Positions 1 through 14,422 are shown, numbered from the stretch's first letter. The stretch is DNA of 64,000 nucleotides from Candidatus Poribacteria bacterium (GCA_965116925.1 OZ220744.1:6302589-6366588); one strand, 5' to 3'. Notes: generated from the letters alone by a model not told the origin. Numbers and translations are program-made.

Positions 1-5
1 TTTGT

Positions 6-464
6 GTGATCGCGTTGCCCGCTTTCGGTGAGCTAACGGATGCGGATCTTGACAAGATTCGGTTGATTGTTAAGGAGGAAGTCAAAGCGGAAATCGCCGG
101 AGTCCGGCAGGAAATCGCCGGAGTCAGAAAGGAACTGAAAGCGGAAATCGCCGGAGTCCGGCAGGAAATCGCCGGAGTCGAACAGGAACTGAAAGCGGAG
201 ATTGCTGGCTCCGAGAAGCGGATAAAAGATTATATCGACGCTAGAATAGAGAGCGTCACAGTCGAAATAGGCAGTGTAGACAAACGTTTCTCAACATACA
301 ATTGGGTGATTTCCATCCTCATGCCGCTGATTGTCGCTGCGGTAGGTATTCCTACAGTCGTCATCGCGTGGCGGAGCGGAAGGGATCGATCGCTCGAAAG
401 GCAAGTTGAAACGCTCGCAAAGGAGATCGAAACGCTGAAGGAACAACGGATTGTAAATCCCTAA
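6..464 (+). CDS. Small coiled-coil membrane protein, family A copy 1 (5' end probably lies before the window start)
   Basis: Begins in the tail of a signal peptide (ALPAFG|ELT), then IRLIVKEEV, AEIAG heptad repeats, SEKRIKDYID, one TM helix and a C-terminal coil; clearly paralogous to 1099, 3319, 4852 and 5919. Confidence 0.8.
   Translation: MIALPAFGELTDADLDKIRLIVKEEVKAEIAGVRQEIAGVRKELKAEIAGVRQEIAGVEQELKAEIAGSEKRIKDYIDARIESVTVEIGSVDKRFSTYNWVISILMPLIVAAVGIPTVVIAWRSGRDRSLERQVETLAKEIETLKEQRIVNP
84..207 (+). repeat. In-frame tandem repeat (54-bp unit made of 21- and 33-bp subunits) encoding KAEIAGVRQEIAGV(R/E)(K/Q)EL
   Basis: aaagcggaaatcgccggagtccggcaggaaatcgccggagtc at 84 and 138, partial third copy at 192. 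Confidence 0.9.
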
Positions 465-475
465 CAGATGTCACC

Positions 476-1030
476 GGTAGGGTTGAGGGGTTGCTCCTAA
501 AAAGTGAACCACAATTCGGGTTGGGGGACCACAATTCGGGTTGGGTGACCCAACCCCTACGGATTGAATTTCCCTCGCTTCCCCGCTTCCTCCCGTCTTC
601 CTGTCCCACATGTCGCCGTTCTATAAACATATCGCCCCGCAGGGGCTAAATCCTCGCCTCCTTGCTTTGTCGTTTTCCCGCGAATCTTATCTGCGTAATC
701 CTTTAATCCGTGTTAATCGGCGATTCAGACATATTGGCAGATGGTGCTCCGCTGGAGCACGGAGATTTGGTCCTATCGCCCTCTATAGACATTATGCTCC
801 GCTGGAGCGTGGGCAATTCCTATCCTCGCGCAACGGGTTGGGGGACCCAACCCCTACGGATTCAATCTCCTCGCTCCCTCCCGTCTTCCTGTTCCACATG
901 TCGCCGTTCTATAAACATATCGCCCCGCAGGGGCTAAATCCTCGCCTCCTCCCCCCCCTCGCTCCCTCGTCCCCTCTGCGTCCTCAGCGTCTCTGCGGTG
1001 TGCTTCTCTCGTTCCACGTTTCCCACAAAA
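476..1030. repeat. Mosaic of REP-like palindromes (intergenic repeat block 1)
   Basis: Hairpins gggttgggtgacccaaccc-ctac (538-560, again near 835), ctataaacatatcgccccgcaggggct and gtgctccgctggagcac; the same modules recur throughout 1.6-7.0 kb. Confidence 0.85.
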
Positions 1031-1035
1031 ATGTC

Positions 1036-1064
1036 TTGCCAACCCGACCCAACCGTGATACTAT
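1036..1064 (+). promoter_or_regulatory. sigma70-type promoter of cassette gene 1099
   Basis: TTGCCA-17 bp-TACTAT with TG extended -10; RBS agaggt upstream of ATG 1099. Confidence 0.7.
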
Positions 1065-1098
1065 ATCAGACCATTCTCCTCAAAAGAGGTGATCCACC

Positions 1099-1578
1099 AT
1101 GAAAGTCGTAATCAGCCTATTCCTACTTCTACTGATAACCCCTGCGTTTGGCCAACTGACGAAGGAGGATATGCGCGCCATCATCAAAGAAGAGGTCCCC
1201 CCTATTGTCAAAGCGGAGATTGCCGCGTCGGAAAAACGGCTGAAGGAGTATATCGATCTCAAAATTGAGACGGTAAACGCCAGAATTGATGCTGTAGAGA
1301 AAAGTCTGAATGCCAGAATTGAGACGGTAAACACTAGAATTGATGTGTTAGAGAAAAGCATAGATGGTAAATTTGATGTCTTAGATACGAGGATGGATGA
1401 TGTGGATAGCAGATTTAATCGTATTTGGCTTGCCATCATCGCGCTGATAACCGCCGCCATTGCACTCCCCCAATTGATTATCATTTATGCGGAAAGGAAA
1501 CGTGGGCGGGAGATCCAGATGCTACTTGAACAATTGCGTGAAAAGACCGAAGGTCCGGAAACCGGGGCGAACCAATGA
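1099..1578 (+). CDS. Small coiled-coil membrane protein, family A copy 2
   Basis: Signal peptide MKVVISLFLLLLITPAFG|QLT, SEKRLKEYID, NARID-type heptads, TM helix IWLAIIALITAAIALPQLIII; good RBS. Confidence 0.85.
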   Translation: MKVVISLFLLLLITPAFGQLTKEDMRAIIKEEVPPIVKAEIAASEKRLKEYIDLKIETVNARIDAVEKSLNARIETVNTRIDVLEKSIDGKFDVLDTRMDDVDSRFNRIWLAIIALITAAIALPQLIIIYAERKRGREIQMLLEQLREKTEGPETGANQ

Positions 1579-1584
1579 ACCGCC

Positions 1585-2170
1585 CCCCTACGGACATCAT
1601 TGGTGTTGGGTTTCGCTGTGGCTCAACCCAACCTACGAAAATACCCCGTTTTCTCGCCTCCCCGCTGCCTCCCGTTTCGCTCCCCAGATGTCGCCCCGCT
1701 GGGGCTTGGGAGGATGGGGTATGTCGCCGTTCTATAAACATATCGCCCCGCAGGGGCTAAATCCTCGCCTCCTTGCTTCGTCGTTTTCCCGCGAATCTTA
1801 TCTGCGTAATCCTTTAATCCGTGTTAATCGGCGATTCAGACATATTGGCAGATGGTGCTCCGCTGGAGCACGGAGATTTGGTCCTATCGCCCTCTATAGA
1901 CATTACGCTCCGCTGGAGCGGGGTCAATTCCCGTCCTCGCGCAAGGGGTTGGGTGACCCAACCCCTACGGATTGAATCTCCTCGCTTCCTCGCTTCCTCC
2001 CGTTTTCCCGTCCCACATGTCGCCCCGCAGGGGCTTGGGAGGATGGGGTATGTCGCCCATCTATAAACATACCGCCCCGCTGGGGCTAAAAGCGTCCCCT
2101 TCCCCCGCTTCTTCCCGTTTTCCCGTCTTCCCGTCTTCCCCTCCCCGCCTTCCCGTTTTCCCCGCCCGTC
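1585..2170. repeat. Mosaic of REP-like palindromes (block 2), including a near-exact copy of about 610-860
   Basis: About 1721-1970 repeats about 610-860 almost base for base; gttgggtttcgctgtggctcaacccaac-ctac hairpin at about 1605-1636; (c/t)ttcccgt pyrimidine octamer runs. Confidence 0.85.
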
Positions 2171-2183
2171 GCCTGATTCAAAC

Positions 2184-2594
2184 TAGGGTCATTTAATTCT
2201 CCCCTATTATTGTCTGAATTATGGATAGACGCGGATTAACCGATTAGAAAGATAAAAGATGCTATCGACAGTTGGCGTAAGAACGCGCAATGAATTGCGC
2301 TACTACAAACGGTGGGGAGACCAGATGCCTCGCCTACGGGTTTGGGTCAGCCCGAACGGTCAAAAAATGGAAAACTAAATAGCCCTACCGTAGGGTCATT
2401 TAATTCTCCCCTATTATTGTCTGAATTATGGATAGACGCGGATTAACAGATTAGAAAGATAAAAGATGCTATCGACAGTTGGCGTAAGAACGCGCAATGA
2501 ATTGCGCTACTACAAACGGTGGGGAGACCAGATGCCTCGCCTACGGGTTTGGGTCAGCCCGAACGGTCAAAAAATGGAAAACTAAATAGCCCTA
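2184..2594. mobile_element. Head-to-tail tandem dimer of a 204-bp MITE (TAGGGTCATTTA...TAAATAGCCCTA)
   Basis: Units 2184-2387 and 2391-2594 are nearly identical and joined by a 3-bp spacer CCG; the dimer is flanked by the 9-bp direct repeat GATTCAAAC (2175-2183 and 2595-2603). Confidence 0.85.
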
Positions 2595-2612
2595 GATTCA
2601 AACAAAAAAGCC

Positions 2613-2641
2613 TTGCGAAATCACTGCAACCGTGATAACCT
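2613..2641 (+). promoter_or_regulatory. sigma70-type promoter of gene 2671
   Basis: TTGCGA-17 bp-TAACCT, with the same CCGTGA before the -10 as in the neighbouring cassettes. Confidence 0.55.
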
Positions 2642-2670
2642 ATAGAACCAAGAAAGGTAGGTGGGCCAAA

Positions 2671-3057
2671 ATGGATTTCGGTTCATGGTCTCCGTCACAT
2701 ACGATATTGGCGCTATTCATCGTCGCCGGTTTCATTGGGCAGGTGGCGGTCTTGTTCTATCGCGTGGGACAAACTGAGAAACGCTTGGCACGTAGTGAAG
2801 AGCGTGCCGAAAAGCGGGATGCGGAATTGCTCGCGCTGATCGATAAGCGAATTGGTGAAGTCAATCAGCGATTCGGTGAAGTCAATCAGCGAATTGACGG
2901 TTTGCGGTCTGAGATGAATCAGCGAATTGACGGCTTACGTACCGAGATGAATCAACGGTTATCCGATATGAACGCTGAAATCGCTGAAGTGCGCACGGAA
3001 ATGCGGCAACTCAACCAGAACCATATCGATCATCTTAACAGGCATGATCAAGCGTGA
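2671..3057 (+). CDS. Small single-TM coiled-coil protein, family B (WSPSH type)
   Basis: MDFGSWSPSH N-terminus, TM helix, NQRIDGLRSEM repeats, LNQNHIDHLN C-terminus; paralog at 26906; start placed at ATG 2671 after aggtaggtgg. Confidence 0.8.
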   Translation: MDFGSWSPSHTILALFIVAGFIGQVAVLFYRVGQTEKRLARSEERAEKRDAELLALIDKRIGEVNQRFGEVNQRIDGLRSEMNQRIDGLRTEMNQRLSDMNAEIAEVRTEMRQLNQNHIDHLNRHDQA

Positions 3058-3255
3058 AAGTCTATAAACATCTCGCTATCTATAGACATGTTGCTCCGCT
3101 GGAGCGGGGTCAATTCCGATCCTCTCGCAAAACGGGTTGGGGGACCCAACCCCTACGGATTGAATCTCCTCGCCTCCGCGCCTCCCTCGTCCCCTCTGCG
3201 TCCTCAGCGTCTCTGCGGTGTGCTTCTCTCGTTCCACGTTTCTCGCAAAAATGTC

Positions 3256-3284
3256 TTGCCAACCCGACCCAACCGTAATACTAT
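3256..3284 (+). promoter_or_regulatory. sigma70-type promoter of gene 3319
   Basis: TTGCCA-17 bp-TACTAT, near-identical to 1036-1064. Confidence 0.7.
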
Positions 3285-3318
3285 ATTAGACCATTCCCCT
3301 CAAAGGAGCCGGTCCGCC

Positions 3319-3732
3319 ATGAAAACCGTAACAACGCTATGCTTACTCCTCTTCCTAACTACCCCCGCATTTGCCCAACTGACGAAGGAGGATATACGCA
3401 CCATCGTCAAAGAAGAGGTCACCGCGTCCGAAAAACGTACGCGGGAATATATCGATCTCAAAATTGATGGTGTGGAGAAAAGCCTGAATACCAGAATTAA
3501 CGAATTAGATAAGAGCCTGAATGCGAGAATTAACGATATACGAATCATAATGATTGCGCTGATTGGACTCATCACCGCCGCCATTGCCATCCCTCAAATC
3601 GTTGCCGCCTACAGAGACAGGGGTCAGAAAGAGATGGAAAGAGGTCAGAAGGCGATGCAATCCCAAATTGACCAGCTGCGCGAGCAAATTGAAGCAATGA
3701 ACCAATCAATCAATGAGCTAATGCATCAATGA
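3319..3732 (+). CDS. Small coiled-coil membrane protein, family A copy 3
   Basis: True start MKTVTTLCLLLFLTTPAFA|QLT after RBS aaggag; SEKRTREYIDLKID, TM helix, QSQIDQLR tail. Confidence 0.85.
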   Translation: MKTVTTLCLLLFLTTPAFAQLTKEDIRTIVKEEVTASEKRTREYIDLKIDGVEKSLNTRINELDKSLNARINDIRIIMIALIGLITAAIAIPQIVAAYRDRGQKEMERGQKAMQSQIDQLREQIEAMNQSINELMHQ

Positions 3733-3734
3733 AT

Positions 3735-4780
3735 CTTCACACATCACGTATTACGTCGCACCTGTCGCCCCGCTGGAGCGGGGTCAATTCCGATCCTCCG
3801 GCAAAACGGGTTGGGGGACCCAACCCCTACGGATTGAATCCCTCTCGTTTTCTGTTTTTCTCACGCCTCACGTATCACTCCGGCACATGGTGCTCCGCTG
3901 GAGCACAATGCTCTGCCCCTCGCCTTCTATAGATATGTCGCTCCGCTGGAGCGGGGTCAATTCCTATCCTCGCGCAAGGGGTTGGGTGACCCAACCCCTA
4001 CGGATTCATTCTCTACCCGCTTGGCAGTCGGGGCAAGATGCCCCTCCCACAGATGATGTGGCTGTCTTTCACGCATCACGTTTCACGCTGCCTTATCCGT
4101 GTTAATCTGTGATTCAGACAATTAACACATGGTGCTCCGCTGGAGCACAATGTTCTGCCCCTTGCCTTCTATAGACATTACGCTCCGCTGGAGCGAAAAG
4201 CAATTCCTCCGGCAAAACGGGTTGGGTGACCCAACCCCTACGGATTGAATCTCTACCCGCTTGGCAGTCGGGGCAAGATGCCCCTCCCACAGATGATGTG
4301 GCTGTCTTTCACGTATCACGTTTCACGCTGCCTTATCCGTGTAATCCTTTAATCCGTGTAAATCCGCGATTCAGACAATTAACACATGGTGCTCCGCTGG
4401 AGCACAATGCTCTGCCCTTCGCCTTCTATAGACATTACGCTCCTCTGGAGCGAAAAGCAATTCCTCCGGCAAAACGGGTTGGGTGACCCAACCCCTACGG
4501 ATTGAATTTCCTCGCTTCCTCCCGTTTTCCCGTCCCACATGTCGCCCCGCTGGGGCTTTGGTTGGTAAGGTATGTCGCCCATCTATAAACATACCGCCCC
4601 GCTGGGGCTAAAAGTGTCCCGCTTCCCCCGCTAGCACATGGCACTCCGCTGGAGTGCGGTATTTTGCCTTATCGCCCGGCTATAGACATTACGCCCTTCT
4701 ATAAACATTGCGCCCCTCTGGGGCTAAACGCCTCCTCGCCTCCTTGCCCCCTCGCTTCCTCGCTCCCTCGTTTTCCCGCA
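3735..4780. repeat. Mosaic of REP-like palindromes (block 3) with internal duplications of about 240-260 bp
   Basis: Repeated modules acacatggtgctccgctggagcacaatg...ctatagacattacgctccgctggagcg...gggttgggtgacccaacccctacgg (near 3885, 4126, 4384) and ggggcaagatgcccctcccacag (near 4030, 4270). Confidence 0.85.
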
Positions 4781-4788
4781 AAAATGGC

Positions 4789-4817
4789 TTGCCAAACCGA
4801 CCCAATCGTGATACCAT
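4789..4817 (+). promoter_or_regulatory. sigma70-type promoter of gene 4852
   Basis: TTGCCA-17 bp-TACCAT with TG extended -10. Confidence 0.65.
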
Positions 4818-4851
4818 ATCAGACCATTCCCCTCAAAGGAGCCGGTCCACC

Positions 4852-5250
4852 ATGAAAACCGTAACAACGCTATGCTTACTCCTCTTTCTAACTCCCCCCG
4901 CATTTGCCCAACTGACGAAGGAGGATATACGCACCATCTTCAAAGAAGAGAACGCCGCGTCCGAAAAACGGCTGAAGGAGTATATCGATCTGAAAGTTGA
5001 AGCAATAAATGCCAGATTTGATGCGACAAATGGCAGAATTGATTCCCTAGACAAAAACCTGAATGGCAGAATGGACGATATACTGACCATAATGATCGCC
5101 CTGATTGCGTTGGTAACCGCTGCGATTGCCGTACCTCAAATCATCATTGCTTTCAAGGAAAAAGGTCAGAAAGAGATGGAAAGAAGTCAAAAGGAGATGC
5201 AATCCCAAATTGACCAGCTCCGCAAAGCGCTTGAAGCGATGCAGCAATGA
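4852..5250 (+). CDS. Small coiled-coil membrane protein, family A copy 4
   Basis: MKTVTTLCLLLFLTPPAFA|QLTKEDIRT, SEKRLKEYIDLK, TM helix, QKEMQSQIDQLR; RBS aaggag. Confidence 0.85.
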   Translation: MKTVTTLCLLLFLTPPAFAQLTKEDIRTIFKEENAASEKRLKEYIDLKVEAINARFDATNGRIDSLDKNLNGRMDDILTIMIALIALVTAAIAVPQIIIAFKEKGQKEMERSQKEMQSQIDQLRKALEAMQQ

Positions 5251-5373
5251 GATACCTCTACAACTCACAATCTAACAGATCGGGGTACAAAAGCCTCCTT
5301 TTATTGAAGCGGTGATTGAAACGGATTTACTGTAGTTGCCCGATTCATCGGGCGTCTGTTCCGAGACTAGGGT

Positions 5374-5670
5374 TAGGATTTGACCTGACAGTGCCCTGCC
5401 AAATCCCTGCCATTTGGCACGGTTATGGTGCCATTTCAGTCAAAAACGGTTCATAAACAGGGCGTATATGTCAGGTCAAAACGCCGTTTGGGCGCACCTT
5501 TTCTTACGTGGTAAAAATCTACAAACGCTCTGAAGCTAGGGCCCATCGGGGTTCAGAGAGACATCGGCTAATGATGCCCCCCCGATGTGAGGTTAAATTT
5601 TTTTTTGGACCTGCCAGTGCCCTGCCAAATTGCCGAATCGTGCCGGTGAATCATTGAAACGGAGGTGTAG
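5374..5670. repeat. About 300-bp dispersed non-coding element; inverted copy at 60601-60895
   Basis: Aligns by eye to the reverse complement of 60601-60895, ending cattgaaacggaggtgtag; internal direct repeat gacctg(a/c)cagtgccctgccaaat near 5382 and 5608. Confidence 0.8.
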
Positions 5671-5677
5671 CAAATTG

Positions 5678-5773
5678 TAGGTCGAGATTCACATCTTGAC
5701 AAACCGCTAAAACCCCTGTAGGTCGAGATTCACATCTCGACGGAAGATCGTCGATTTTGGAAAATCGCCCTAC
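5678..5773. repeat. GTAG-REP cluster (gtaggtcgagattcacatctcgac family with inverted partner gtcgattttggaaaatcg(a/c)cctac)
   Basis: Same doublet recurs at about 13899-13953 and 63335-63389. Confidence 0.8.
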
Positions 5774-5856
5774 AATCCCTTAATCCTCTTAATCCGCGAT
5801 TCAGACAATTAACGCATCCCGCTCCCCGGAGCCAAATGCACCCAATCAAAAAGATC

Positions 5857-5885
5857 TTGATAAATCAACCACACCGTGATAACAT
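5857..5885 (+). promoter_or_regulatory. sigma70-type promoter of gene 5919
   Basis: TTGATA-17 bp-TAACAT preceded by CCGTGA. Confidence 0.6.
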
Positions 5886-5918
5886 ATACCATCATTCCTC
5901 CAAAGGAGTCAGTCAACC

Positions 5919-6269
5919 ATGAGAATCATAGCAATCCTATCCCTACTCCTCTTGGCATCTCCTGCATTTGGCGAACTGACCAAAGAAGATATACGAATCA
6001 TTGTCAGAGAAGAAATCGCCGCGTCCGAGAAGCGCACAAGGGAATATATGGACCTCAAAATTGATGCGACAAATGCCAGAATTGATGCGTTGAATAAAAG
6101 TTTTGATCGCGCATGGGTCTTGATACTTGCGCTGATTGGACTAATAACAGCCGCAATTGCAATCCCTCAAATCATCATTGCGTTCAAAGAACGGGGTCAG
6201 AAGGAGATGCAACTCCAAATTGACCAACTCCGCGAACAAATCGAAGCCATGCAAACGCCTCCATCATAA
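5919..6269 (+). CDS. Small coiled-coil membrane protein, family A copy 5 (shortest)
   Basis: MRIIAILSLLLLASPAFG|ELTKEDIR, SEKRTREYMDLKID, TM helix, QIDQLREQIEAM; RBS aaggag. Confidence 0.85.
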   Translation: MRIIAILSLLLLASPAFGELTKEDIRIIVREEIAASEKRTREYMDLKIDATNARIDALNKSFDRAWVLILALIGLITAAIAIPQIIIAFKERGQKEMQLQIDQLREQIEAMQTPPS

Positions 6270-6279
6270 TTGCAACTGC

Positions 6280-7040
6280 ACTCCCATCGGGTTGGGAGAG
6301 TCACCCTCTACGGACGTTGGTGTTGGGTTTCGCTGTGGCTCTACCCCACCTACGAAACCGCTCCCGTTTTCTGTTTTTTTTGCGTCCTTGCGTTAAATAC
6401 TGTATCACGCATCACGTTTCACGCTGCCTTATCCGTGTTAATCCGCGATTCAGACAATTAACACATGGTGCTCCGCTGGAGCACAATGCTCTGCCCTTCG
6501 CCTTCTATAGATATGTCGCTCCGCTGGAGCGGGGTCAATTCCGATCCTCCGGCAAAACGGGTTGGGGGACCCAACCCCTACGGATTGAATCTCCTCGCTT
6601 CCTCCCGTTTTCCCGTCCTACATGTCGCCCCGCTGGGGCTTGGGTTGTTAGGGTATGTCGCCCATCTATAAACATATCGCCCCGCTGGGGCTAAAAGCGT
6701 CCCGTTTTCCAGTTTCCTATCCTATAAATCCTTGAATCCTGAAAATCCTGATTCAGACAATTATCCGCGTAATCCTTTAATCCGTGTAAATCCGCGATTC
6801 AGACAGATTGGCACATGGTGCTCCGCTGGAGCACAATGCTTTGCCCCTCGCCCTCTATAGACATTGCGCTCCGCTGGAGCGAAAAGCAATTCCTCGCGCA
6901 ACGGGTTGGGGGACCCACCCCCTACGGACATCCTCTCGCAACGGGTTGGGGGACCCAACCCCTACGGATTGAATCTCCTCGCCTCCCCGTCTTCCCGTTT
7001 TCCCGTCTTCCCGTCCTCCCGTCTTCCCGCCCCCTCGCCT
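6280..7040. repeat. Mosaic of REP-like palindromes (block 4)
   Basis: Same modules as blocks 1-3 (gtgctccgctggagcac, gccccgctggggc, gggttgggggacccaacccctac, aatccgcgattcagacaa). Confidence 0.85.
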
Positions 7041-7164
7041 ATTACTTTATTGAAAAAAACCTGAAACCGACCCGCCGTCCGCATCGTAGTATCTTCAGCA
7101 TAATCGCTAGAGATCTATCCGTAGCTTCCGTTTTTTTATGTGCAAATCCCAAATCCGGCGATTC

Positions 7165-7182
7165 GTGTGAATTTTTTCACAA
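7165..7182. promoter_or_regulatory. Palindromic CRP/FNR-family or Rex-like operator
   Basis: gTGTGAattttttTCACAa read as TGTGA-N6-TCACA (7166-7181), ending 8 bp upstream of the -35 box. Confidence 0.6.
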
Positions 7183-7189
7183 AAAAGGC

Positions 7190-7218
7190 TTGACAGATAT
7201 TTGGATCTGTTGTATTAT
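7190..7218 (+). promoter_or_regulatory. Near-consensus sigma70 promoter of the giant surface-protein gene
   Basis: TTGACA-17 bp-TATTAT; implies a 5' leader of about 220 nt before ATG 7446. Confidence 0.75.
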
Positions 7219-7445
7219 AGGGCGTCTTTAACTGATATGAGGGGAAATTACGTCAACAGTTTCGTGGTTCGCCGGGCGGCGAACCCCCTACCGACCGACC
7301 CAATTTCCACAGCTCCACTCCCAACGAAAGGATTCTTACTTTTATGATAGAACAAACAGACGCATCGAAAAGTGACGAGCGTCATGTTAAATATAGATGT
7401 AACACAAACCTTTTAACCCAAAAAAAGACAGGAGGAAAACATATA

Positions 7446-10400
7446 ATGGGTAACCAAGGTATGACAAATTGGAAATTAACCGCGCTTTTTGCCATTGCTT
7501 TAATGGTGATTGCGGGGATGTTCAGTAACGCGGCTATGGCACAAGCCGGTGCCGGAACGATTACGGTGACTGATGTTGCAGCGGATGGCACCGGCTCCAT
7601 TCCTGGTGGCGCGAAGAACCACCAAATTAGTTTCACCTATACGCTCCCTGCAGCTAGTAGAGTCAGTCTGTCCGAGGGGGCGGTTCAAATTGAACTCCCG
7701 TCTGGGTGGTCGGTGGTAGGTGCTGCGGGTCTCTCTCTTCCCGAAGTTAGCGTAGGTACTGCCCGGTTCGTCGGCACTAGGAAGGTGGTGGTCACACTCC
7801 CTACATACACTGCTGATGATACTGATGCGACTACTGATGTGGAGGTGACAATCAGCTTTGGGGTAAACGCGCCTGCGACGCGTGGTTCTCACGACTTCAA
7901 AATTTCGTCCAAAAGGAGAACCGGCAGCTACAAACTATTAACAGCATTAGATCCGGATGGAATCATCAAAGTTAGGGTCGGTGCTAGGGATACAATTACT
8001 GTGGAAAGTGATGAGACTGGTACTACTGGAAAGGCTTTCGCGGATGATGAGGTTGCGCTGACATTTACTTATACCGCTGATTCAGCGGCGGCAACAACCG
8101 TTAAAATTACGTTCCCATCGAGTTGGACCATTCCTTCTGATTTTTCACAGACGGACGTAACACGGAGTGGTCAGGTATTGGAATTTGCTTCCACTGTTAC
8201 TCTCAGCGCGATAACGGTAACGTCCCCGAAGGTTGCTGGCAAATATGAGTTCACAACGATGTCTAAGGCGGCGGGCGGAGAGTTTACCAAGTTGGAAGTT
8301 CAACCATCTATCGTGGTTGGCAATGTTGCGTCTGGCAAAGGAACGGTTGAGATCACGCCGGCGAATCCGGTCATAGGGGATACGGATGTAGTATTTACAG
8401 TTACCTATACCGCCGCAGGTCGGATGGTCACAGACGATGAAGGCCAAGCGGGTCTTCGGATTACATTTCCTTTTAACCTAGCCAACGATCAGATCGCCTC
8501 GGTGTCCGGCGGGGGCGCGAAGTTAGTTGCGGACGACGCTACCAATGCGACTGTCGACATCACGATTGCGCGTCTCAACAGTGGGGGGAAGGTCGTTCTT
8601 AAGACAAAGATGATTGACATTCCTAGTACTGCTGCCGCTATTGCTTTGGAACCTACTAGTGCTGCCGAGACTGACAGGAAAAGTGGTTTTGGGGCGGTAG
8701 CGCAGACTTCTCTTACTCCAATCCCTGATGATGGTAGTGATCGCACTGCTCTAGACTACAGTGCTGGTGCTCTGTCTAATGCGGACTTGGGCGACGCGAA
8801 AGCGCAGATAACGGGCGGATTGCTTCAGCCTGCAGAGGGTTCAGGAACGCTAAAAGCGGAGCCTGCGGTTTTGGAGAAGGGTCGGACGGGGCAGTCAATC
8901 AAGCTGACTTATACCGCAACGAGAAACGATCCCGGGGACTCAATAACGATTACGCTTCCTACGGGAGTTGCAAACATAAAGAAGGCTACGTCTGGGACTT
9001 CGGGTGTTACGCCTACCCATGCTGATGGCGGCGCGACGATTGTTTGGCCGGTGAGTAATCTTGTCAGAGGGAAGACGTTGATAGCTAATGTAAAGATGGA
9101 TATACCGGACTCAACTGACGATTTGGTATTTTCATTTTCAACCACCAGGGGCGGAACTCCTACGGACGCCCCCGATTCATCTCAAGCTAAAATCACAATT
9201 GTGGGCAAAGCTGAGGATTTTGAGTTCGCAATAGTAGATTTAAGTACCGGTAACCCGATTGATGGCATGTTTCATGCCGCAAGTAAGCAGGAGATTGGGT
9301 TCAGGATTACTGCTGCGAATAGTACCATCCAGGAGGATGGCTTCATTAGAATTACAGTCCCTTCCCTCTGGTCTGGAGCTAGCACCGGGAATCGGGTGGC
9401 TCAGGTGAAAATCTCTGATTTGACCGAGAAGGCTATCCGTGATGCCCTGCCAGCGAGGGCGCTCAGCGCATCTGGACGCACAATCACCGTTAAGATCGAC
9501 GATGGCACGACGAAATATAGTTTGGCAAAAGGTAGTTCTATCACGGTTCAATACGGTGTGAAGGTTGACGATGCAAAAGATTATAGAGCTCTGATGCCAA
9601 ATCAAGCCGGCAAGATGGTGGTTACGGCGAAAGTTAAAGCGTATAAGAGCTACAGCGAACACACTCTGGATTCAATAGAGGCAGAGATTACAAATGTTAT
9701 GGACGGTTCCGGTGAGGCGACGATAAGGCCGACTACCGTCAGGGCAGGCACAGATGATAACAGGATTGAGGTGAAGTTTACGGCACAGGGATCGATGGGC
9801 GGCGGTGCGGTGCGCCTGACAATCCCCAGCGGTTGGGGCGAAATGCAAAACAGTGATGCTGCAGCCCTTAACCACGTTGCGGTGCGCTCACCTGTTAGGG
9901 GCGTTGAGCTCAATGCTGATAGCTTCGTTGATGGTGTAGCCCTAATAAATCTGCCGGGTGGTCCGGACGATGACAATCCGAATCCGAATGCCTTTAGGAG
10001 AGGAAGCTACTTCACATTGATTTATGGCGGCGCGCCTGGAAACAAAGGTGCTGAAGCCCAAGACACTATCGGCGTTGCCGATTTCATAATTGAATCAATT
10101 GGTGATAGCAATGGTACTTTTACTAATCTCACGAGCGATGTCAAAAGGCCAAGCGGCGACACTAAAGGTCTAGGGCGAATTTACAAAGAGGCTGCCGGTA
10201 AACTTAGGATTGATGTGAAGAGTGGAGCGGACGGCAGCGGCACCGCGAAAGTTGAGATTGCTGGTACTTCAGCGGGTAAGATGCGATACGAAGGTGGTGA
10301 CGAAAAGTATCAGGTCCATGCCGCTGATGATGTCTATCTCAAGTTTACGTACACCGCAAGTCAGGCGATAAAAATGGGACAGTTGAGACTCACTATTCCT

Positions 10401-13400
10401 ACTGCTGATGGGTGGACTTCGCCGCAAGATCTCTCTACAGGCAGAATGGGTTATACCCGTATTGATGCGCCATCGGGTGCTACTGAACTGCCTGTAATGG
10501 CAAACAGCACTGTAACGGTGGATATTGTTGATCTCGCTCCCGATGAAGAGATTGTGATTCATTACGGATCGATGGGTAGCGGTATGGTCATGGCACCTCG
10601 TGATACCGGTCCGAGCCAATTCCATATTGCGATTAAGGGAACTGAGGAAGGAAGTCTCATAACCCTTGATGACCCGTTAGTAATAAACGTCAGGTCTCAA
10701 GCAAGTGGCGCAGGCACCGCTGCAATCCATGTTACGGGCGGTGACCTACATGCCGGTGATACGGATCGCGAGCTCCGAATCGTTTACACCGCTGCCGGTC
10801 AAATGCGGGGTGGTGAGGTTAAACTGACTATCCCCAAAGCATGGTCGGATCCAGAGGGTACGGTTGATACAGGGCATAACCTTGAGGTCACTCCAGCGGG
10901 AGCCCACGAGGAGGTCGTGTTTGATGCGGACACCGATGGCAACCACACTGTCGTTGCTAAAGATGTCGATTTGGCAGCCGGTGGTTCACTCACCTTCGTT
11001 TATAGTAATGTGGTGGTGCCGTCAGCAGAGTCAACTGTTGTACAGTACCAGTTTGAAGTTGCCGTCTTTGGTGGAGAACAGCCCTTTGATGGTGAGGATG
11101 GCACGATGGAAATCGCTGATATGACCGATCTAGTCGTTGAGGTCGGACAGGCGAAAGCCGGTAGTGGTATGGTTATGGTATCTCCAACCGCCGTTGATGC
11201 GGATGGTGACGAAGTAACGCTGACCTTTACCTATACTGCGGCTGGAGATATTTTCTATCCTAGGGGACTCATGGTCGAAGTGCCTACAAGTTGGGAAGAA
11301 CCCACAAGTGGATCAGGTGCCTCTGACGAGGGTCGTTACGAAGTTAAACACATGCGCGGCACCACCGATGAGGGCGGTGTGATAGAACGTCCACCGGAGG
11401 GTCGGAAAATGGTCGCTCGCGTTACACAGGGTAAGTCGGTGAAGGCGGGCGATAAGATTATGTTCGTCTATCATGCTGACCCGCCCGTGAGCCCTGAAGT
11501 TTCCATGTTCAAGGTCTACTTTGATGGCGCAATGGTTGGAGATCCCGTTGAGGTGCTTGTCCAACCCGCTGGAGGAGCAACCCAGATAGCACTTAAAGAC
11601 GTAGCCAACCTTTCAGCAGATGAGGACCCGCAGATGCCTGTTATGGTCACTGTGGAACTTCAAGCTACTGACGGTAATCCGGCTACAGCTGAGACTGCTG
11701 TTGAAGTGATGCTGGACGACGGTGCCAGTACGGGTATGTTCTCCATGACCGCCGATGGTGAGTATAGTGACACTGCGACGATAAACATCGCCGTCGGTAT
11801 GTGGTCAGGGATGGCGTACTACAAGAATTCAACGCTTGGTCCCCACACCATCACAGCGAGTGCGACTGGCTATGACAGTAAGATGACAACCGTTATGGTT
11901 TCCACCGATGAGCCAGGACTTACTCGTGTCACCTTTACGGTTGCCGATAGTGACGGTGTCGTAAAGACTGGTGACGCAAGCAATGCCGCGATGGAGAACG
12001 ATATGGTAACCGTCACCGCAATGGCTAACCGCGATCAAACGGCGACCGTTATGATAGGGTCTCTCATGGCTCAGCGTGGGAATATGGAGGAGTCAACCCC
12101 CGGCACCTACACCCGTGAGCATCCAGTGGCTGCAGGCAGTGCGGAAGGTTCGCATACGATCACCGTCTATATCGGAGGCGAAATGATGAGCGCGACCGAT
12201 ATGCTAATCGTTGATGATACCGATCCAACTGTAACCGTATCAGATATTGAGGGTCCTGTCGCAAATGGGGCTGAAGTGATGATCTCTGCTACGGTTAGTG
12301 ACGCAAAAATGGATTCATCAGGTGATCCCATAACAGTTTCAGGTGTCTCCTCTTCCTCTGTTATGGCAAATGTCTCCATGCTGGATAATCAAGCCACAGA
12401 GATGGTTAGATTGACCGATGATGATGGCGATGGTACATATATGGGTGCGCATACCATCAGCATGGAAAATACAGTGGCAAACGGAATGCATACAATCACC
12501 GTTACCGCGATGGACAACGCTGGCAACAGCGGAGAGGGTTCTACAACCGTTGAGTTGGAGAACGCTACGTCCTTCACATCGACGATATCGTCAGGCGTCA
12601 GTCTGTTCCACGTACCGTTAAATGATCCGAGGTTCGACACTATCGGTCAGCTTCGTGCGGAGATTGGAGACGCCAAGGTTAATTCCATTGTCGCCTATGA
12701 TGCAGCAGGTAGATTGGAACCCTCTAGCGATAATATAGCGATCGAGGGCGGTCGTGGTATCATCGTTTCACTAAACACCGAAGCTACAGTCACCTTTGAG
12801 GGTGAGGCGTGGGGCACTGATGGCACCGCCACGGTTTCCCTTGAGGCAGGAGATTCGAACCTCATCGGTTTGCCTCTCATGAATGACGACGTGAGCATGG
12901 TCAGCGATATCCTCGGTCTACACGCTGCTATTGAAGGGGTCTATCCTAACCTGACAGACTTCGTTGCAGCAGCCGGTGATACAGGCGATGGTCCTGTCGC
13001 AGGCGATGCCGCATATTATGTGGTAGCAAGTAGGGATGCTGATGTTACCGTCACAGGTAGTGGTTGGAGCAACGACCCAGGGGCGGGCACAGCACCAATC
13101 GCGCTCTCTGGATATACGGTGGAAAGCCAGACACCAGTGCTGTCTGTCTTCGGTTCCGTCGTTGACGAGACCACCGGCGTTGCAAAGGAAGGTTTCCGTG
13201 TCAAGGTCAAGAACCTGACAACGAAGGCTTCCGTCAGCGAGGTTACTTCCGTTGAAACAGAAGACGGATACAGTGTGACCCTGCTTGACCTAGCGAACGC
13301 CAACGCAGCACGCGTCGGTGATGTGCTTGAGATTTCCGCTGATTCGCCGAATCCGATGATTGGTGTCGAGGCGGTACGTCATATCGTCACAGTGGATGAT

Positions 13401-13745
13401 GTGAAGAACAGCACTATCCAGTTGGAAGACCTCGTTGCGTATGAGATTCCCGCTGAGACGGCGCTGCTTCGCAACTATCCGAACCCGTTCAATCCAGAAA
13501 CTTGGATTCCGTATCATCTCTCAGAAGATGCCGATGTTACATTGCGCATCTACAGTATCAATGGCGAGCTGGTCCGTAGCATTGATGTGGGACATCAAAC
13601 CGCAGCGAAGTACGACACCAGATCCAAGGCCATCTACTGGGATGGTCGGAACCGTTTCGGTGAACAGGTTGCAAGCGGTATCTACTTCTACAGCCTAAGT
13701 GCAGGTGACTTCTCAGCGACCCGTAAAATGGTCATTCTGAAGTAA
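7446..13745 (+). CDS. Giant secreted Ig-like repeat surface protein (about 2,100 aa) with a C-terminal FlgD-Ig/T9SS-like sorting domain
   Basis: RBS AGGAGG at 7430-7435; signal peptide ending AAMA|Q; many GSG..FTYTA..GG.V.L.IP..W beta-sandwich repeats; tail ALLRNYPNPFNPETWIPY...WDGRN..GEQVASGIYFY...RKMVILK. Confidence 0.85.
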   Translation: MGNQGMTNWKLTALFAIALMVIAGMFSNAAMAQAGAGTITVTDVAADGTGSIPGGAKNHQISFTYTLPAASRVSLSEGAVQIELPSGWSVVGAAGLSLPEVSVGTARFVGTRKVVVTLPTYTADDTDATTDVEVTISFGVNAPATRGSHDFKISSKRRTGSYKLLTALDPDGIIKVRVGARDTITVESDETGTTGKAFADDEVALTFTYTADSAAATTVKITFPSSWTIPSDFSQTDVTRSGQVLEFASTVTLSAITVTSPKVAGKYEFTTMSKAAGGEFTKLEVQPSIVVGNVASGKGTVEITPANPVIGDTDVVFTVTYTAAGRMVTDDEGQAGLRITFPFNLANDQIASVSGGGAKLVADDATNATVDITIARLNSGGKVVLKTKMIDIPSTAAAIALEPTSAAETDRKSGFGAVAQTSLTPIPDDGSDRTALDYSAGALSNADLGDAKAQITGGLLQPAEGSGTLKAEPAVLEKGRTGQSIKLTYTATRNDPGDSITITLPTGVANIKKATSGTSGVTPTHADGGATIVWPVSNLVRGKTLIANVKMDIPDSTDDLVFSFSTTRGGTPTDAPDSSQAKITIVGKAEDFEFAIVDLSTGNPIDGMFHAASKQEIGFRITAANSTIQEDGFIRITVPSLWSGASTGNRVAQVKISDLTEKAIRDALPARALSASGRTITVKIDDGTTKYSLAKGSSITVQYGVKVDDAKDYRALMPNQAGKMVVTAKVKAYKSYSEHTLDSIEAEITNVMDGSGEATIRPTTVRAGTDDNRIEVKFTAQGSMGGGAVRLTIPSGWGEMQNSDAAALNHVAVRSPVRGVELNADSFVDGVALINLPGGPDDDNPNPNAFRRGSYFTLIYGGAPGNKGAEAQDTIGVADFIIESIGDSNGTFTNLTSDVKRPSGDTKGLGRIYKEAAGKLRIDVKSGADGSGTAKVEIAGTSAGKMRYEGGDEKYQVHAADDVYLKFTYTASQAIKMGQLRLTIPTADGWTSPQDLSTGRMGYTRIDAPSGATELPVMANSTVTVDIVDLAPDEEIVIHYGSMGSGMVMAPRDTGPSQFHIAIKGTEEGSLITLDDPLVINVRSQASGAGTAAIHVTGGDLHAGDTDRELRIVYTAAGQMRGGEVKLTIPKAWSDPEGTVDTGHNLEVTPAGAHEEVVFDADTDGNHTVVAKDVDLAAGGSLTFVYSNVVVPSAESTVVQYQFEVAVFGGEQPFDGEDGTMEIADMTDLVVEVGQAKAGSGMVMVSPTAVDADGDEVTLTFTYTAAGDIFYPRGLMVEVPTSWEEPTSGSGASDEGRYEVKHMRGTTDEGGVIERPPEGRKMVARVTQGKSVKAGDKIMFVYHADPPVSPEVSMFKVYFDGAMVGDPVEVLVQPAGGATQIALKDVANLSADEDPQMPVMVTVELQATDGNPATAETAVEVMLDDGASTGMFSMTADGEYSDTATINIAVGMWSGMAYYKNSTLGPHTITASATGYDSKMTTVMVSTDEPGLTRVTFTVADSDGVVKTGDASNAAMENDMVTVTAMANRDQTATVMIGSLMAQRGNMEESTPGTYTREHPVAAGSAEGSHTITVYIGGEMMSATDMLIVDDTDPTVTVSDIEGPVANGAEVMISATVSDAKMDSSGDPITVSGVSSSSVMANVSMLDNQATEMVRLTDDDGDGTYMGAHTISMENTVANGMHTITVTAMDNAGNSGEGSTTVELENATSFTSTISSGVSLFHVPLNDPRFDTIGQLRAEIGDAKVNSIVAYDAAGRLEPSSDNIAIEGGRGIIVSLNTEATVTFEGEAWGTDGTATVSLEAGDSNLIGLPLMNDDVSMVSDILGLHAAIEGVYPNLTDFVAAAGDTGDGPVAGDAAYYVVASRDADVTVTGSGWSNDPGAGTAPIALSGYTVESQTPVLSVFGSVVDETTGVAKEGFRVKVKNLTTKASVSEVTSVETEDGYSVTLLDLANANAARVGDVLEISADSPNPMIGVEAVRHIVTVDDVKNSTIQLEDLVAYEIPAETALLRNYPNPFNPETWIPYHLSEDADVTLRIYSINGELVRSIDVGHQTAAKYDTRSKAIYWDGRNRFGEQVASGIYFYSLSAGDFSATRKMVILK

Positions 13746-14131: not shown

Positions 14132-14422
14132 ACGGTAGAGAGCGCATCTTCCGAATCACGTTTCATTCCTCAATTCAACGGGAAAAATGGGAATTTTACC
14201 AATTACGCCTTACGGATTATTCTTTATTAAATGGTTTCATATATTAATGTATCTTGGCACCTTGAAAGAAAAAAAACAGGGGGCGTCCCGCCGCAACCCG
14301 GGTCCACACCCACGTACCCCAAAACGGACAGAAACCGAGTAGGGGTAGGTCTTGTGCCCACCCAATCAATACTCGGTTTATCTAATTAAATCATATTGAT
14401 GGGAACCTTCAGGAGGACAAAT

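What the first reader, a model, noticed from the sequence alone, without database searches (positions are those of the whole stretch)
1..7040. Array of self-contained promoter-plus-gene cassettes for variable coiled-coil membrane proteins in a REP mosaic
Seen: six co-oriented small genes (five family A: signal peptide, variable-length coiled coil, TM helix, short coil; one family B). The five whose upstream region is visible each have their own homologous promoter (TTG(C/A)nA-17-TAnnnT, with CCGTGA or a one-base variant before the -10, at 1036, 2613, 3256, 4789, 5857). They are separated only by shuffled copies of the same palindromic modules, for example 610-860 repeated at about 1721-1970 on either side of gene 1099. 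Family A paralogs look chimeric: 3319 and 4852 share the signal peptide, while 3319 and 5919 share SEKRTREY and LIGLITAAIAIPQI. Inference: an expanding and contracting cassette system that diversifies an envelope protein family by recombination through REP mosaics, possibly aided by a RAYT. It is not an integron (no intI or attC seen, and each cassette has its own promoter).
Basis: partly seen in the sequence, partly recalled or inferred. Interest (0 to 1): 0.8.

Follow-up and report, generated by a model that had tools for sequence, protein, structure and literature searches.

The report
Poribacterial coiled-coil membrane gene array
A sponge-symbiont (Poribacteria) chromosome carries a row of small, related membrane-protein genes, each with its own copy of one promoter, that gains, loses and reshuffles members between species by ordinary recombination, while the palindromic repeats between the genes look like passengers and not the engine.

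Summary
Six co-oriented monocistronic genes lie in 1-6269: five family A and one family B. Each has a homologous extended -10 sigma-70-type promoter, and repeat mosaics fill the spacers. The first gene and its promoter start just upstream of the window.

Family A is uncharacterised and was found in 128 of 151 genomes of the phylum searched. The name Candidatus Poribacteria comes from one named homologue. In 7 species of the genus the array sits at the same place, between a PD40/TPR gene and giant genes with type IX secretion tails, with 1 to 10 copies. Paralogs are demonstrably mosaic, and the coil length varies through in-frame repeats. So "expanding, contracting, recombining family" is supported.

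"Driven by REP mosaics and a RAYT" is not supported:
- The relative with 8 copies, including 98-100% identical duplicates, has almost no REPs.
- The exchange blocks I could map (upstream -144..-37, coding +7..+58 and +165..+173) lie in the promoter-proximal upstream sequence and in the genes.
- The adjacent RAYT-like gene is broken, and a homologue appeared in the stretches fetched from only one of 11 relatives.
- No integrase lies nearby and the genome has no reverse transcriptase.

The closest analogue is the Borrelia Bdr family. This is a new member of a known kind, of moderate interest. In passing: a 204-nt MITE whose ends sit 17-19 nt upstream of promoters.

The parts
1..464 (+). Family A gene A0 (alpha subtype, 164 aa). 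The ATG lies 30 nt upstream of the window (L001 17971) and its promoter at L001 17911-17939.
   Evidence: orthologues in 6 other genomes form a clade with SH-aLRT 100
465..1035 (+). Spacer 1: GTAG-type REP hairpins, hairpin doublets and C/T-rich octamers. Holds the 610-893 block.
1036..1064 (+). Promoter of A1 (TTGCCA-17-TACTAT with TG before the -10)
1099..1578 (+). Family A gene A1 (159 aa; longest coil; C2-type TM module)
1579..2183 (+). Spacer 2: REP mosaic. 1721-2004 is a 95% copy of 610-893, so the two copies flank A1 as direct repeats.
2184..2594 (-). Two tandem copies of a dispersed 204-nt TIR-MITE, with a 9-bp target duplication GATTCAAAC. The right end lies 18 nt upstream of the family B -35.
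2613..2641 (+). Promoter of B (TTGCGA-17-TAACCT), homologous to the family A promoters
2671..3057 (+). Family B gene (128 aa; N-terminal TM helix, 7/11-residue repeats, conserved C-terminus LNQNHIDHL)
3058..3255 (+). Spacer 3: one REP composite block
3256..3284 (+). Promoter of A2
3319..3732 (+). Family A gene A2 (137 aa)
3733..4788 (+). Spacer 4: REP composite blocks, including a 257-nt unit repeated 2.5 times (3884-4507)
4789..4817 (+). Promoter of A3
4852..5250 (+). Family A gene A3 (132 aa). Its 5' part, from -69 to about +54, is 90-97% identical to A2.
5251..5856 (+). Spacer 5: terminator-like hairpin at 5282-5297, then a dispersed element of about 290 nt (about 5380-5670, with 88-90% copies elsewhere)
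5857..5885 (+). Promoter of A4 (TTGATA-17-TAACAT)
5919..6269 (+). Family A gene A4 (116 aa; shortest coil)
6270..7040 (+). Spacer 6: REP mosaic ending in C/T-rich octamer repeats
7190..13745 (+). Context: promoter (TTGACA-17-TATTAT) and a 2133-aa protein with a type IX secretion C-terminal sorting domain. This is the conserved right-hand neighbour of the array.

Best explanation
This is a tandem array of a lineage-specific multigene family of Candidatus Poribacteria.

The unit. Each unit is a monocistronic cassette made of:
- an A-tract;
- a -35 (TTGCCA or TTGATA), a 17-nt spacer and a TGn-extended -10;
- a leader of about 30 nt with AAGGAG;
- an ORF for a small bitopic protein.
Family A reads as a Sec signal peptide, a conserved N-terminal motif, a periplasmic alpha-helical stalk built of 11- and 18-residue repeats of variable number, one TM helix and a short cytoplasmic coil. 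Family B has an N-terminal TM helix followed by a repeat coil.

The locus. The array occupies a conserved, fast-evolving envelope locus between a PD40/TPR gene and giant surface-protein genes with type IX secretion tails.

How it changes (inferred). It evolves by general homologous recombination:
- unequal crossing-over between the near-identical promoter/5' and TM/3' modules, and sometimes between spacer blocks, adds or removes whole units;
- short-tract gene conversion reshuffles modules between paralogs, and has put the array promoter in front of a family B gene;
- slippage or unequal exchange in the 21-54-nt in-frame repeats changes stalk length.

The repeats. The REP and MITE sequences are genome-wide selfish elements. 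They colonised the dispensable spacers and were then co-amplified locally as composite blocks. They are passengers and possible extra recombination substrates, not a dedicated mechanism.

Shown: the anatomy, conserved synteny, copy-number differences, mosaicism, local amplification of the spacers and a REP-free array in a relative.
Inferred: membrane topology, oligomeric stalk, promoter activity and the recombination pathway.
For: ANATOMY AND PROMOTERS. The same promoter signature lies upstream of 59 of 68 family A genes from 12 genomes. In 4 of the 9 misses the ORF start was simply called too far upstream.

DISTRIBUTION
- In this genome family A occurs only in this array.
- It was found in 32 of 41 relatives and in 128 of 151 genomes of the phylum.
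- 2549 proteins reached E<=0.001 among 7999 scored, and none had a functional name.

SYNTENY AND COPY NUMBER
- The PD40/TPR neighbour is 84-93% identical in 6 relatives.
- Family A gene counts are 1-10.

MOSAICISM
- The 51 quartet-informative sites fall in blocks: -144..-37 support A1+A2, +7..+58 support A2+A3, and +165..+173 support A1+A3.
- Neighbouring sites agree 27 times against 16.5 expected, permutation p=0.0009.
- N-terminal and TM module types recombine across species; for example 3 alpha N-termini sit on C3 or C4 bodies.

BIRTH AND DEATH
- The tree mixes cross-species groups with species-specific pairs.
- The nearest neighbour lies in the same genome for 34 of 68 5' ends and 32 of 68 3' ends, against 6.4 expected.
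- G005 carries 98-100% identical duplicates.

REPEATS AS PASSENGERS
- The spacer modules have 15-50 copies elsewhere in the genome, on both strands.
- For 11 of 13 composite blocks tested, the best non-self matches (at least five) all lie inside the array.
- Orientation is uniform only in the array.
- The G005 array has 8 genes and 0.6 hairpins per kb, in a genome with the fewest such REPs: 28, against 84-136 in the others.

PROTEIN
- The AF2 model has one continuous helix over residues 35-151, mean pLDDT 78.
- Hydrophobic periodicity peaks at 3.6 or 3.67 in 50 of 50 parsed proteins and never at 3.5. Coil length is 31-73 residues.
Against: - No transcript data: no RNA run holds the stretch, so promoter use and monocistronic transcription are untested.
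- Topology and the signal peptide are read by eye; no predictor was available.
- The spacer sequence of the promoter is conserved beyond what a plain sigma-70 consensus needs, so a specific regulator may exist that this account ignores.
- Long direct repeats at 93-95% identity do flank genes here (610-893/1721-2004; 4462-4627/6545-6710), so REP blocks may contribute to gain and loss in this genome.
- The genomes compared are different species. No within-population variation was seen, so nothing is known about rates.
- The mosaic test used one MAFFT alignment of four sequences. Selection on motifs could add to the clustering inside the coding part.
Confidence: 0.7

Rival explanations
1. One reading: a dedicated diversification system. 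REP mosaics, cut or paired by a REP-associated tyrosine transposase (RAYT), are the substrate that moves, duplicates and deletes cassettes.
For: - A RAYT-like gene lies 370-870 nt upstream of the window. Its two halves match NF047646 collinearly (22.6 and 38.4 bits), and GTAG-REPs flank it in opposite orientations.
- The genome has 3 RAYT genes over the curated cut-off elsewhere.
- Direct repeats of 93-95% identity flank A1 and the A3-A4 pair.
- REP hairpins are also frequent and co-oriented in the arrays of several relatives.
Against: - The adjacent RAYT-like gene has an in-frame stop and a frame change. Both halves score under the 80-bit cut-off.
- A homologue turned up in the stretches fetched from only 1 of 11 relatives.
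- G005 has the second largest syntenic array, with fresh duplicates and almost no REPs.
- The mapped exchange blocks lie in the promoter-proximal upstream sequence and the coding sequence.
- Composite blocks spread by local duplication, not by independent insertion.
Confidence: 0.1
2. Portable-promoter model. The promoter, together with its upstream AATCCGYG-repeat and GATTCAGACA motif, is itself a mobile cis-regulatory module related to MITE ends. It has been grafted onto unrelated genes (A and B), so the 'cassettes' are created by the module rather than by gene duplication.
For: - The in-array family B gene, and its counterparts in 4 of 5 relatives, carry the array promoter. The six dispersed B paralogs of this genome do not.
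- The upstream motif has 114 sites in the genome (up to 2 mismatches) and is sub-terminal in several MITE families.
- In relatives it directly abuts the A-tract and the -35.
- A related 204-nt MITE sits at a fixed 17-19 nt from -35 boxes.
Against: - In this genome the promoter core occurs only in the array. Of 10 loose pattern matches, 5 are in the array and the others show no wider similarity.
- Family A genes share homology across promoter, leader and coding sequence, as expected from whole-unit duplication.
- One A-to-B promoter transfer by recombination is enough to explain family B.
Confidence: 0.1
3. Remnant of a prophage, defence or lysis module: the small TM-plus-coil proteins would be spanin-, holin- or exclusion-type proteins.
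For: Family B gives a weak match to an Rz-like spanin PHROG (E 1e-5, 26.7 bits). Families A and B give weak matches to PHROGs of unknown function and to coiled-coil parts of defence proteins.
Against: - All matches are low-scoring coiled-coil similarities, and none is shared by all paralogs.
- No phage genes flank the array.
- The array holds a fixed chromosomal position across 7 species, and the family is found across the phylum.
Confidence: 0.05
4. Assembly artefact: the array is a mis-joined or inflated repeat region.
For: The region is repeat-rich, and no public contig bridges a whole spacer.
Against: - The unique parts of all five genes inside the window are found at 100% identity in runs of two studies.
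- The genome is one 6.47-Mb contig.
- Arrays of the same build lie at the same place in independent single-contig genomes of other species.
Confidence: 0.02

Closest known systems
Borrelia Bdr (Borrelia direct repeat) paralogous family; Pfam KID repeat PF02524
   Same: - Many paralogs per genome of small proteins, with a central run of 11-residue repeats whose number varies, and one C-terminal membrane helix.
- 33 of 50 family A members match the KID repeat at E<=0.01.
- In Borrelia the repeat number differs between strains and the genes lie in variable, recombining regions (passages read in PMC3303823).
   Different: - Bdr genes sit on plasmids and cp32 prophages, not in one chromosomal tandem array.
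- Bdr has no signal peptide and its repeats face the cytoplasm. This point, inner-membrane anchoring, and the link between the KID model and Bdr are recalled; the primary papers were not held.
- The five proteins of this window score below the KID cut-off (13.5 and 13.0 bits against 20.8).
- No homology was shown beyond the repeat.
REP / BIME clusters with RAYT (E. coli REPtron type)
   Same: - Short GC-rich imperfect palindromes preceded by GTAG, extragenic, in hundreds of copies and several families.
- They are clustered in mosaics with other motifs, as in BIMEs.
- RAYT genes are present in the genome.
   Different: - Here the mosaics are stacked in a 7-kb gene array, all in one orientation, and were amplified locally as composite blocks of 100-280 nt.
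- The second hairpin class forms direct doublets about 51 nt apart, not the inverted doublets of REPINs.
- The neighbouring RAYT-like gene is broken.
Integron cassette arrays
   Same: A row of co-oriented small genes separated by structured repeats.
   Different: - Every unit has its own promoter.
- No tyrosine recombinase lies within about 600 kb.
- The spacers are hundreds of nt of genome-wide repeats, and no Rfam family matched.
Gene-conversion antigenic variation loci (pilE/pilS, vlsE) and diversity-generating retroelements
   Same: Mosaic paralogs that share conserved ends and have variable middles.
   Different: - There are no promoter-less silent copies: all six units carry the promoter.
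- No reverse transcriptase was found in the genome (0 matches).
Braun lipoprotein Lpp and other periplasmic coiled-coil spacers
   Same: A small exported alpha-helical protein whose length could set a distance in the periplasm (functional analogy only; recalled).
   Different: Family A is anchored by a TM helix and not by lipid, has hendecad-type periodicity, occurs in many paralogs, and shows no sequence relation to Lpp.

Membership tests
Integron | intI tyrosine recombinase next to the array | tested here: not met
   PF00589 gives 3 matches in the genome, at 1.66, 4.63 and 5.70 Mb. The nearest is about 600 kb from the array.
Integron | Promoter-less cassettes, each ending in an attC site | tested here: not met
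   Each gene has its own promoter. The spacers are 200-1050 nt of dispersed repeats. No Rfam match at E<=1. No dedicated attC model was run.
REP / BIME elements | Short imperfect palindromes with a conserved GTAG, extragenic, in high copy number | tested here: met
   The GTAGGGG-hairpin families have 110, 61, 52, 50 and 31 copies, and another family has 200. Of 349 copies classified outside the array, 14 lay inside crude gene calls.
REP / BIME elements | Cognate RAYT in the genome | tested here: met
   NF047646 gives 3 matches over the 80-bit cut-off, 1 below it, and the broken copy beside the array. Which RAYT serves which REP was not tested.
REPIN | Two REPs in inverted orientation forming one long hairpin | tested here: not met
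   The GCCCCGCWGGGGC hairpins occur as direct doublets 51-52 nt apart. GTAG-REP pairs were not examined genome-wide.
Bdr / KID repeat (PF02524) | Match to the KID repeat model over its cut-off | tested here: inconclusive
   33 of 50 family members match at E<=0.01, best 3.1e-16. The window's own proteins score 13.5 and 13.0 bits against a 20.8 cut-off, and three give no hit. The model is only 11 residues long.
Bdr / KID repeat (PF02524) | Bdr-specific conserved N- and C-terminal domains | not tested
   No Bdr sequence was fetched or compared.
Diversity-generating retroelement | Reverse transcriptase with template and variable repeats | tested here: not met
   PF00078 gives 0 matches in the 99% complete genome.
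Silent-cassette gene-conversion system | One expression site plus promoter-less donor copies | tested here: not met
   All six units carry the promoter. No promoter-less family A fragment was found by tblastn, and no orphan promoter either.
Rz-like i-spanin (family B only) | Significant match, a partner o-spanin and a lysis cassette | tested here: not met
   Only 26.7 bits to phrog_739. There are seven dispersed paralogs with no phage context.

The most novel reading that the evidence does not exclude
The locus is a selected hot spot for combinatorial variation and not a neutral gene family. A shared, portable promoter module, related to MITE ends that dock at a fixed distance from -35 boxes, keeps every copy expressed. 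Module exchange and repeat-number change then generate a species-specific set of periplasmic stalks of graded length (about 31-73 residues). These stalks co-assemble and work with the neighbouring giant type IX surface proteins in the contact between symbiont and sponge, or symbiont and phage.
Probability: 0.12. Interest if true: 0.65.

Novelty: new member of a known kind. Interest (0 to 1): 0.4.

Why it matters
Poribacteria are uncultured sponge symbionts, and most of their lineage-specific genes have no known role. This family is one of their widely kept multi-copy families: it was found in 128 of 151 genomes searched, with up to 17 matches per genome. It lies at a fast-changing envelope locus and has an unusually well conserved promoter, so it is a reasonable target for expression and localisation work on how these cells build or vary their envelope.

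For genome evolution, the locus is a clean natural example that separates two things often conflated. Tandem gene arrays expand and reshuffle through their own homologous parts, while REP and MITE elements accumulate in the spacers and are amplified along with them. The comparison with a REP-free array in a sister species makes that distinction testable.

Tried and rejected
- Expression: no RNA holder was listed for the stretch.
- Read support for gene order: the Logan contigs of 4 runs are too short to bridge any spacer, and their many 'joints' have 20-28-nt sides inside repeats, so they say nothing on order.
The oligomeric state is therefore untested.
- Pfam and NCBIfam: only sub-threshold coiled-coil matches.
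- PHROGs and PADLOC: weak coiled-coil matches only.
- PDB profile search: best E 0.0077, to trimeric viral coiled coils such as influenza HA2 and reovirus sigma-1. I treat this as composition, not homology.
- ESM Atlas: only unnamed poribacterial clusters.
- Rfam on 1-7400 at E<=1: nothing.
- Folding a 299-nt spacer unit as RNA: z-score -1.9, a string of short hairpins and nothing more.
- Replication-linked orientation bias of REPs: not seen (163 against 200, with no switch along the genome).
- Transcription-linked orientation outside the array: weak or opposite.
- The array as the most repeat-dense place in the genome: rejected. By unbiased 12-mer counts its 7-kb bin ranks 24th to 27th of 924.
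- ECF-sigma reading of the promoter: rejected by eye, because the AAC-to-CGT spacing does not fit. No call tested this.
- Fold search of the model: not run, because a single long helix gives no informative matches.
- Literature: two searches (Poribacteria with 'coiled-coil'; Poribacteria with 'repetitive extragenic palindromic') listed 3 and 1 papers, none on this family or locus judging by title and abstract start.
- Three Bdr primary papers were not held.
- The careful tree search did not finish; the quick tree was used.

Full report
WHAT IS THERE

The window is G000:C1:6302589-6366588 of a single-contig 6.47-Mb genome. One homologue bears the name Candidatus Poribacteria (P0026).

In 1-6269 there are six co-oriented ORFs. 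Five of them align as one family, family A: 3..464, 1099..1578, 3319..3732, 4852..5250 and 5919..6269. The alignment has 24 invariant columns. The shared build is:
- a hydrophobic start ending in PAFG/PAFA, followed by Q or E; I read this by eye as a Sec signal peptide, since no predictor was available;
- the motifs LTKEDIRxIVKEE and SEKRxxEYIDLKI;
- a repeat region of very different length;
- a TM helix;
- a short charged C-terminal coil.

The first gene really starts 30 nt upstream of the window (L001 17971).

Family B (2671..3057) has an N-terminal TM helix, 7/11-residue repeats and a conserved C-terminus. tblastn finds family A nowhere else in the genome. Family B has six further dispersed copies, one of them at about window 26906.

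No Pfam or NCBIfam model reaches its cut-off.

PROMOTERS

The scan reports TTGCCA/TTGATA-17-TAnnAT at 1036, 3256, 4789 and 5857. The family B site at 2613 is weaker but aligns with them, as does the site upstream of the first gene.

The shared sequence runs from an A-tract through the -35, a conserved spacer, CCGTGATA (which contains the TGn of an extended -10) and the -10. In family A it continues into the leader ACCATTCCCCTCAAAGGAG.

The 16-nt core, with up to 3 mismatches, occurs only at the five sites in the 64 kb window, against 0.66 expected. A looser genome-wide pattern gives 10 sites, 5 of them in the array.

Across 12 genomes, 59 of 68 family A genes have the signature within 110 nt of the called start. 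In 4 of the 9 misses the ORF start was called too far upstream, and 5 lack the signature.

The in-array family B genes of 4 of 5 relatives carry it too. The six dispersed B copies here do not.

SPACERS

Three palindromic motifs give 11, 16 and 11 matches in 1-7000, all on the + strand, with at most 0.09 expected. Read on the other strand, the first motif is GTAG followed by a hairpin. This is the layout I recall for E. coli REPs.

GTAG-hairpin families have 31 to 200 copies genome-wide. Blast of the array against the genome shows that the spacers consist almost wholly of sequences with 15-50 copies elsewhere, on both strands.

The composite blocks of 100-280 nt are array-specific, however. For 11 of 13 blocks tested, the best non-self matches (at least five) all lie in the array. 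Examples are 610-893 = 1721-2004 at 95%, 4095-4253 = 4352-4510 at 95%, and 4462-4627 = 6545-6710 at 94%.

Outside the array the same motifs show no uniform orientation relative to genes (123 same against 100 opposite; 24 against 50) or along the replichores. The simplest reading is that a few REP insertions were multiplied locally, together with or between the genes.

The two exceptions are true dispersed mobile elements. One is a 204-nt MITE present twice in tandem at 2184-2594. The other is an element of about 290 nt at about 5380-5670.

By an unbiased 12-mer count the array's 7-kb bin ranks 24th to 27th of 924. It is repeat-rich but not the extreme of this repeat-rich genome. No Rfam family matches.

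THE RAYT

A RAYT-like gene lies on the minus strand 370-870 nt upstream of the window. Its two halves match NF047646 collinearly (model positions 12-71 and 75-133; 22.6 and 38.4 bits against a cut-off of 80). Pfam Y1_Tnp gave no hit.

The gene has an in-frame stop near the start, and its two halves are in different frames. GTAG-REPs flank it in opposite orientations.

The genome holds three RAYT genes over the cut-off elsewhere.

A homologue of the broken copy appeared in the stretches fetched from only one of 11 relatives (G009).

COMPARISON WITH RELATIVES

Family A was found in 32 of 41 relatives (18 of 19 genomes of the genus) and in 128 of 151 genomes of the phylum. Three families of one order carry it in nearly all genomes, and none of 4 and 5 genomes in two other families do.

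The large protein search gave 2549 proteins at E<=0.001 among the 7999 candidates scored, all without a functional name.

I fetched 18 stretches from 11 genomes of the genus and found 68 family A ORFs, including the 5 here.

In 6 relatives the PD40/TPR gene, which lies upstream here on the opposite strand, is next to the array at 84-93% identity. A giant protein only 27-45% identical follows the array. That giant protein has a type IX secretion tail here.

Counts of family A genes between the two flanking genes:

| Genome | Family A genes |
|---|---|
| G008 | 1 |
| G002 | 2 |
| G003 | 2 |
| G011 | 4 |
| G000 (this genome) | 5 |
| G005 | 8 |
| G007 | 10 |

The best cross-species matches of the five proteins are 60-80% identical, lower than for the flanking genes.

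The quick tree (the careful search did not finish) mixes cross-species groups with species-specific pairs. For example, the alpha subtype forms a group of 11 rows from 7 genomes with SH-aLRT 100. Genome labels need 38 changes against 49.6 in shuffles, and 0 of 200 shuffles were as low.

The nearest neighbour lies in the same genome for 34 of 68 5' segments and 32 of 68 3' segments, against 6.4 expected.

MOSAICISM

Among A1-A4 there are 51 quartet-informative sites in 526 ungapped columns, and they fall in blocks:

| Positions relative to the ATG | Pairing supported |
|---|---|
| -144..-37 | A1 with A2 |
| +7..+58 | A2 with A3 |
| +165..+173 | A1 with A3 |

Neighbouring sites agree 27 times against 16.5 in permutations (p=0.0009).

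A1 and A2 are 93-97% identical upstream but 52-67% identical in the 3' half. A2 and A3 are 90-97% identical from -69 to +54, then 58-85%.

Across species, N-terminal types, an optional RPIIKEE insert and five TM-module types occur in many combinations. Three alpha-type N-termini sit on beta-type bodies.

In-frame tandem repeats of 21, 33 and 54 nt lie in the coil regions. The stretch from SEKR to the TM helix ranges from 31 to 73 residues.

ARE THE REPS THE ENGINE?

The evidence says no.
- The G005 array has 8 genes, including 98-100% identical duplicates at two different offsets, but only 0.6 GC-rich hairpins per kb, against 6.1 here.
- G005 also has the lowest genome-wide count of the hairpin motif: 28, against 84-136 in five other genomes.
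- REP content of the arrays therefore follows the REP load of the genome, not the number of genes.

The long direct repeats that flank A1 and the A3-A4 pair here could still mediate deletions or duplications in this genome. That was not tested.

THE PROTEINS

AlphaFold2 with a 50-sequence alignment gives a short helix followed by one continuous helix over residues 35-151, running through the TM segment (mean pLDDT 78).

Hydrophobic periodicity peaks at 3.6 or 3.67 residues in all 50 proteins that could be parsed out of 68, and never at 3.5. This fits 11- and 18-residue repeats.

33 of 50 members match the 11-residue KID repeat model at E<=0.01. I recall that model as built on Borrelia Bdr proteins. 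Passages of PMC3303823 confirm that bdr genes carry imperfect direct repeats whose number differs between strains and that they lie in variable, recombining regions. The topology of Bdr is recalled only.

Function is unknown. My best guess is an oligomeric periplasmic stalk anchored in the inner membrane. This is inference: the oligomer prediction never ran.

WHAT IT IS NOT

- Not an integron: every unit has its own promoter and the nearest tyrosine recombinase is about 600 kb away.
- Not a DGR: the genome has no reverse transcriptase.
- Not a silent-cassette conversion system: there are no promoter-less copies.
- No phage context.
- Not an artefact, as far as can be told. The unique parts of the five in-window genes occur at 100% identity in runs of two studies, and the same architecture recurs in independent complete genomes.

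VERDICT

This is a recombining, expanding and contracting family of self-promoted genes. The REP mosaic and the RAYT are bystanders on present evidence.

It is a new, uncharacterised member of a known kind: a tandem multigene family with repeat-length variation, closest in style to Bdr, embedded in BIME-like repeat clusters. Interest is moderate.

SEEN IN PASSING

The 204-nt MITE has TIRs (TAGGGCTATTTA ... TAAATGACCCTA) and 9-10-bp target duplications without a consensus.

An outward-facing promoter-like site scoring at least 10 of 12, with its -35 at 17-19 nt from the element end, follows 7 of 23 3' ends and 6 of 23 5' ends. The same is true of only 3 of 4000 random intergenic 80-mers.

In the window, the right-hand copy ends 18 nt before the family B -35. 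Relatives have the uninterrupted site there.

Noticed in passing
window 2184-2387 and 2391-2594 (minus orientation); other copies e.g. G000 genome 261358-261561, 465603-465806, 471797-472002, 4868684-4868869: A 204-nt TIR-MITE with 9-10-bp target duplications. Its two ends lie 17-19 nt from an outward-facing sigma-70-like -35 far more often than chance: 13 of 46 ends against 3 of 4000 random intergenic 80-mers. In the window it ends 18 nt before the family B -35. It either targets a fixed place upstream of promoters or is tolerated only there.
   Followed up: partly
L001 17132-17634 (minus strand) = 370-870 nt upstream of the window: A RAYT-like gene split by an in-frame stop and a frame change. 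REP-like sequence lies between the HUH half and the Tyr half, and GTAG-REPs flank the gene in opposite orientations. It is the only copy of its subtype in the genome.
   Followed up: partly
L001 11408-11987 (minus strand): An IS200-like Y1 transposase (Pfam Y1_Tnp, 68.5 bits), also split over two frames, about 6 kb upstream of the array.
   Followed up: no
G000 genome-wide; window 700-730, 1811-1841, 4095-4122, 4352-4379, 5785-5810, 6431-6458, 6781-6806: The motif AATCCGYG (repeated at about 9-10 nt) followed by ATCCGCGATTCAGACA has 114 sites (up to 2 mismatches) and is sub-terminal in several MITE and REP-composite families. In sister species it directly abuts the A-tract and -35 of the family A and B promoters.
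   Followed up: partly
window 5380-5670; also window about 60601-60889: A dispersed element of about 290 nt with copies 88-90% identical, about 17-29 copies in the genome. Not characterised.
   Followed up: no
window 7344-13745 and 14396-21955: Two giant proteins (2133 and 2519 aa) with Ig-like domains and type IX secretion C-terminal sorting domains, followed by UPF0164-like and LysM proteins. The first is only 27-45% identical to its counterparts in species where the upstream PD40/TPR gene is 84-93% identical.
   Followed up: partly
window 26906-27316 and five other G000 loci (genome 2912227, 3354450, 6056498, 5593637, 345787): Family B is itself a dispersed family of 7 paralogs. They share a conserved start (MDFxxWSPSH) and end (LNQNHIDHL) and carry 80-142 aa depending on the number of 7/11-residue repeats. 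In-array copies in relatives reach 180-192 aa.
   Followed up: partly
window 570-602, 2110-2167, 6986-7029; L016 12651-13041: Runs of a C/T-rich octamer (CCCGTCTT-like), up to about 50 units in G005, lie next to REP blocks and between family A genes.
   Followed up: no
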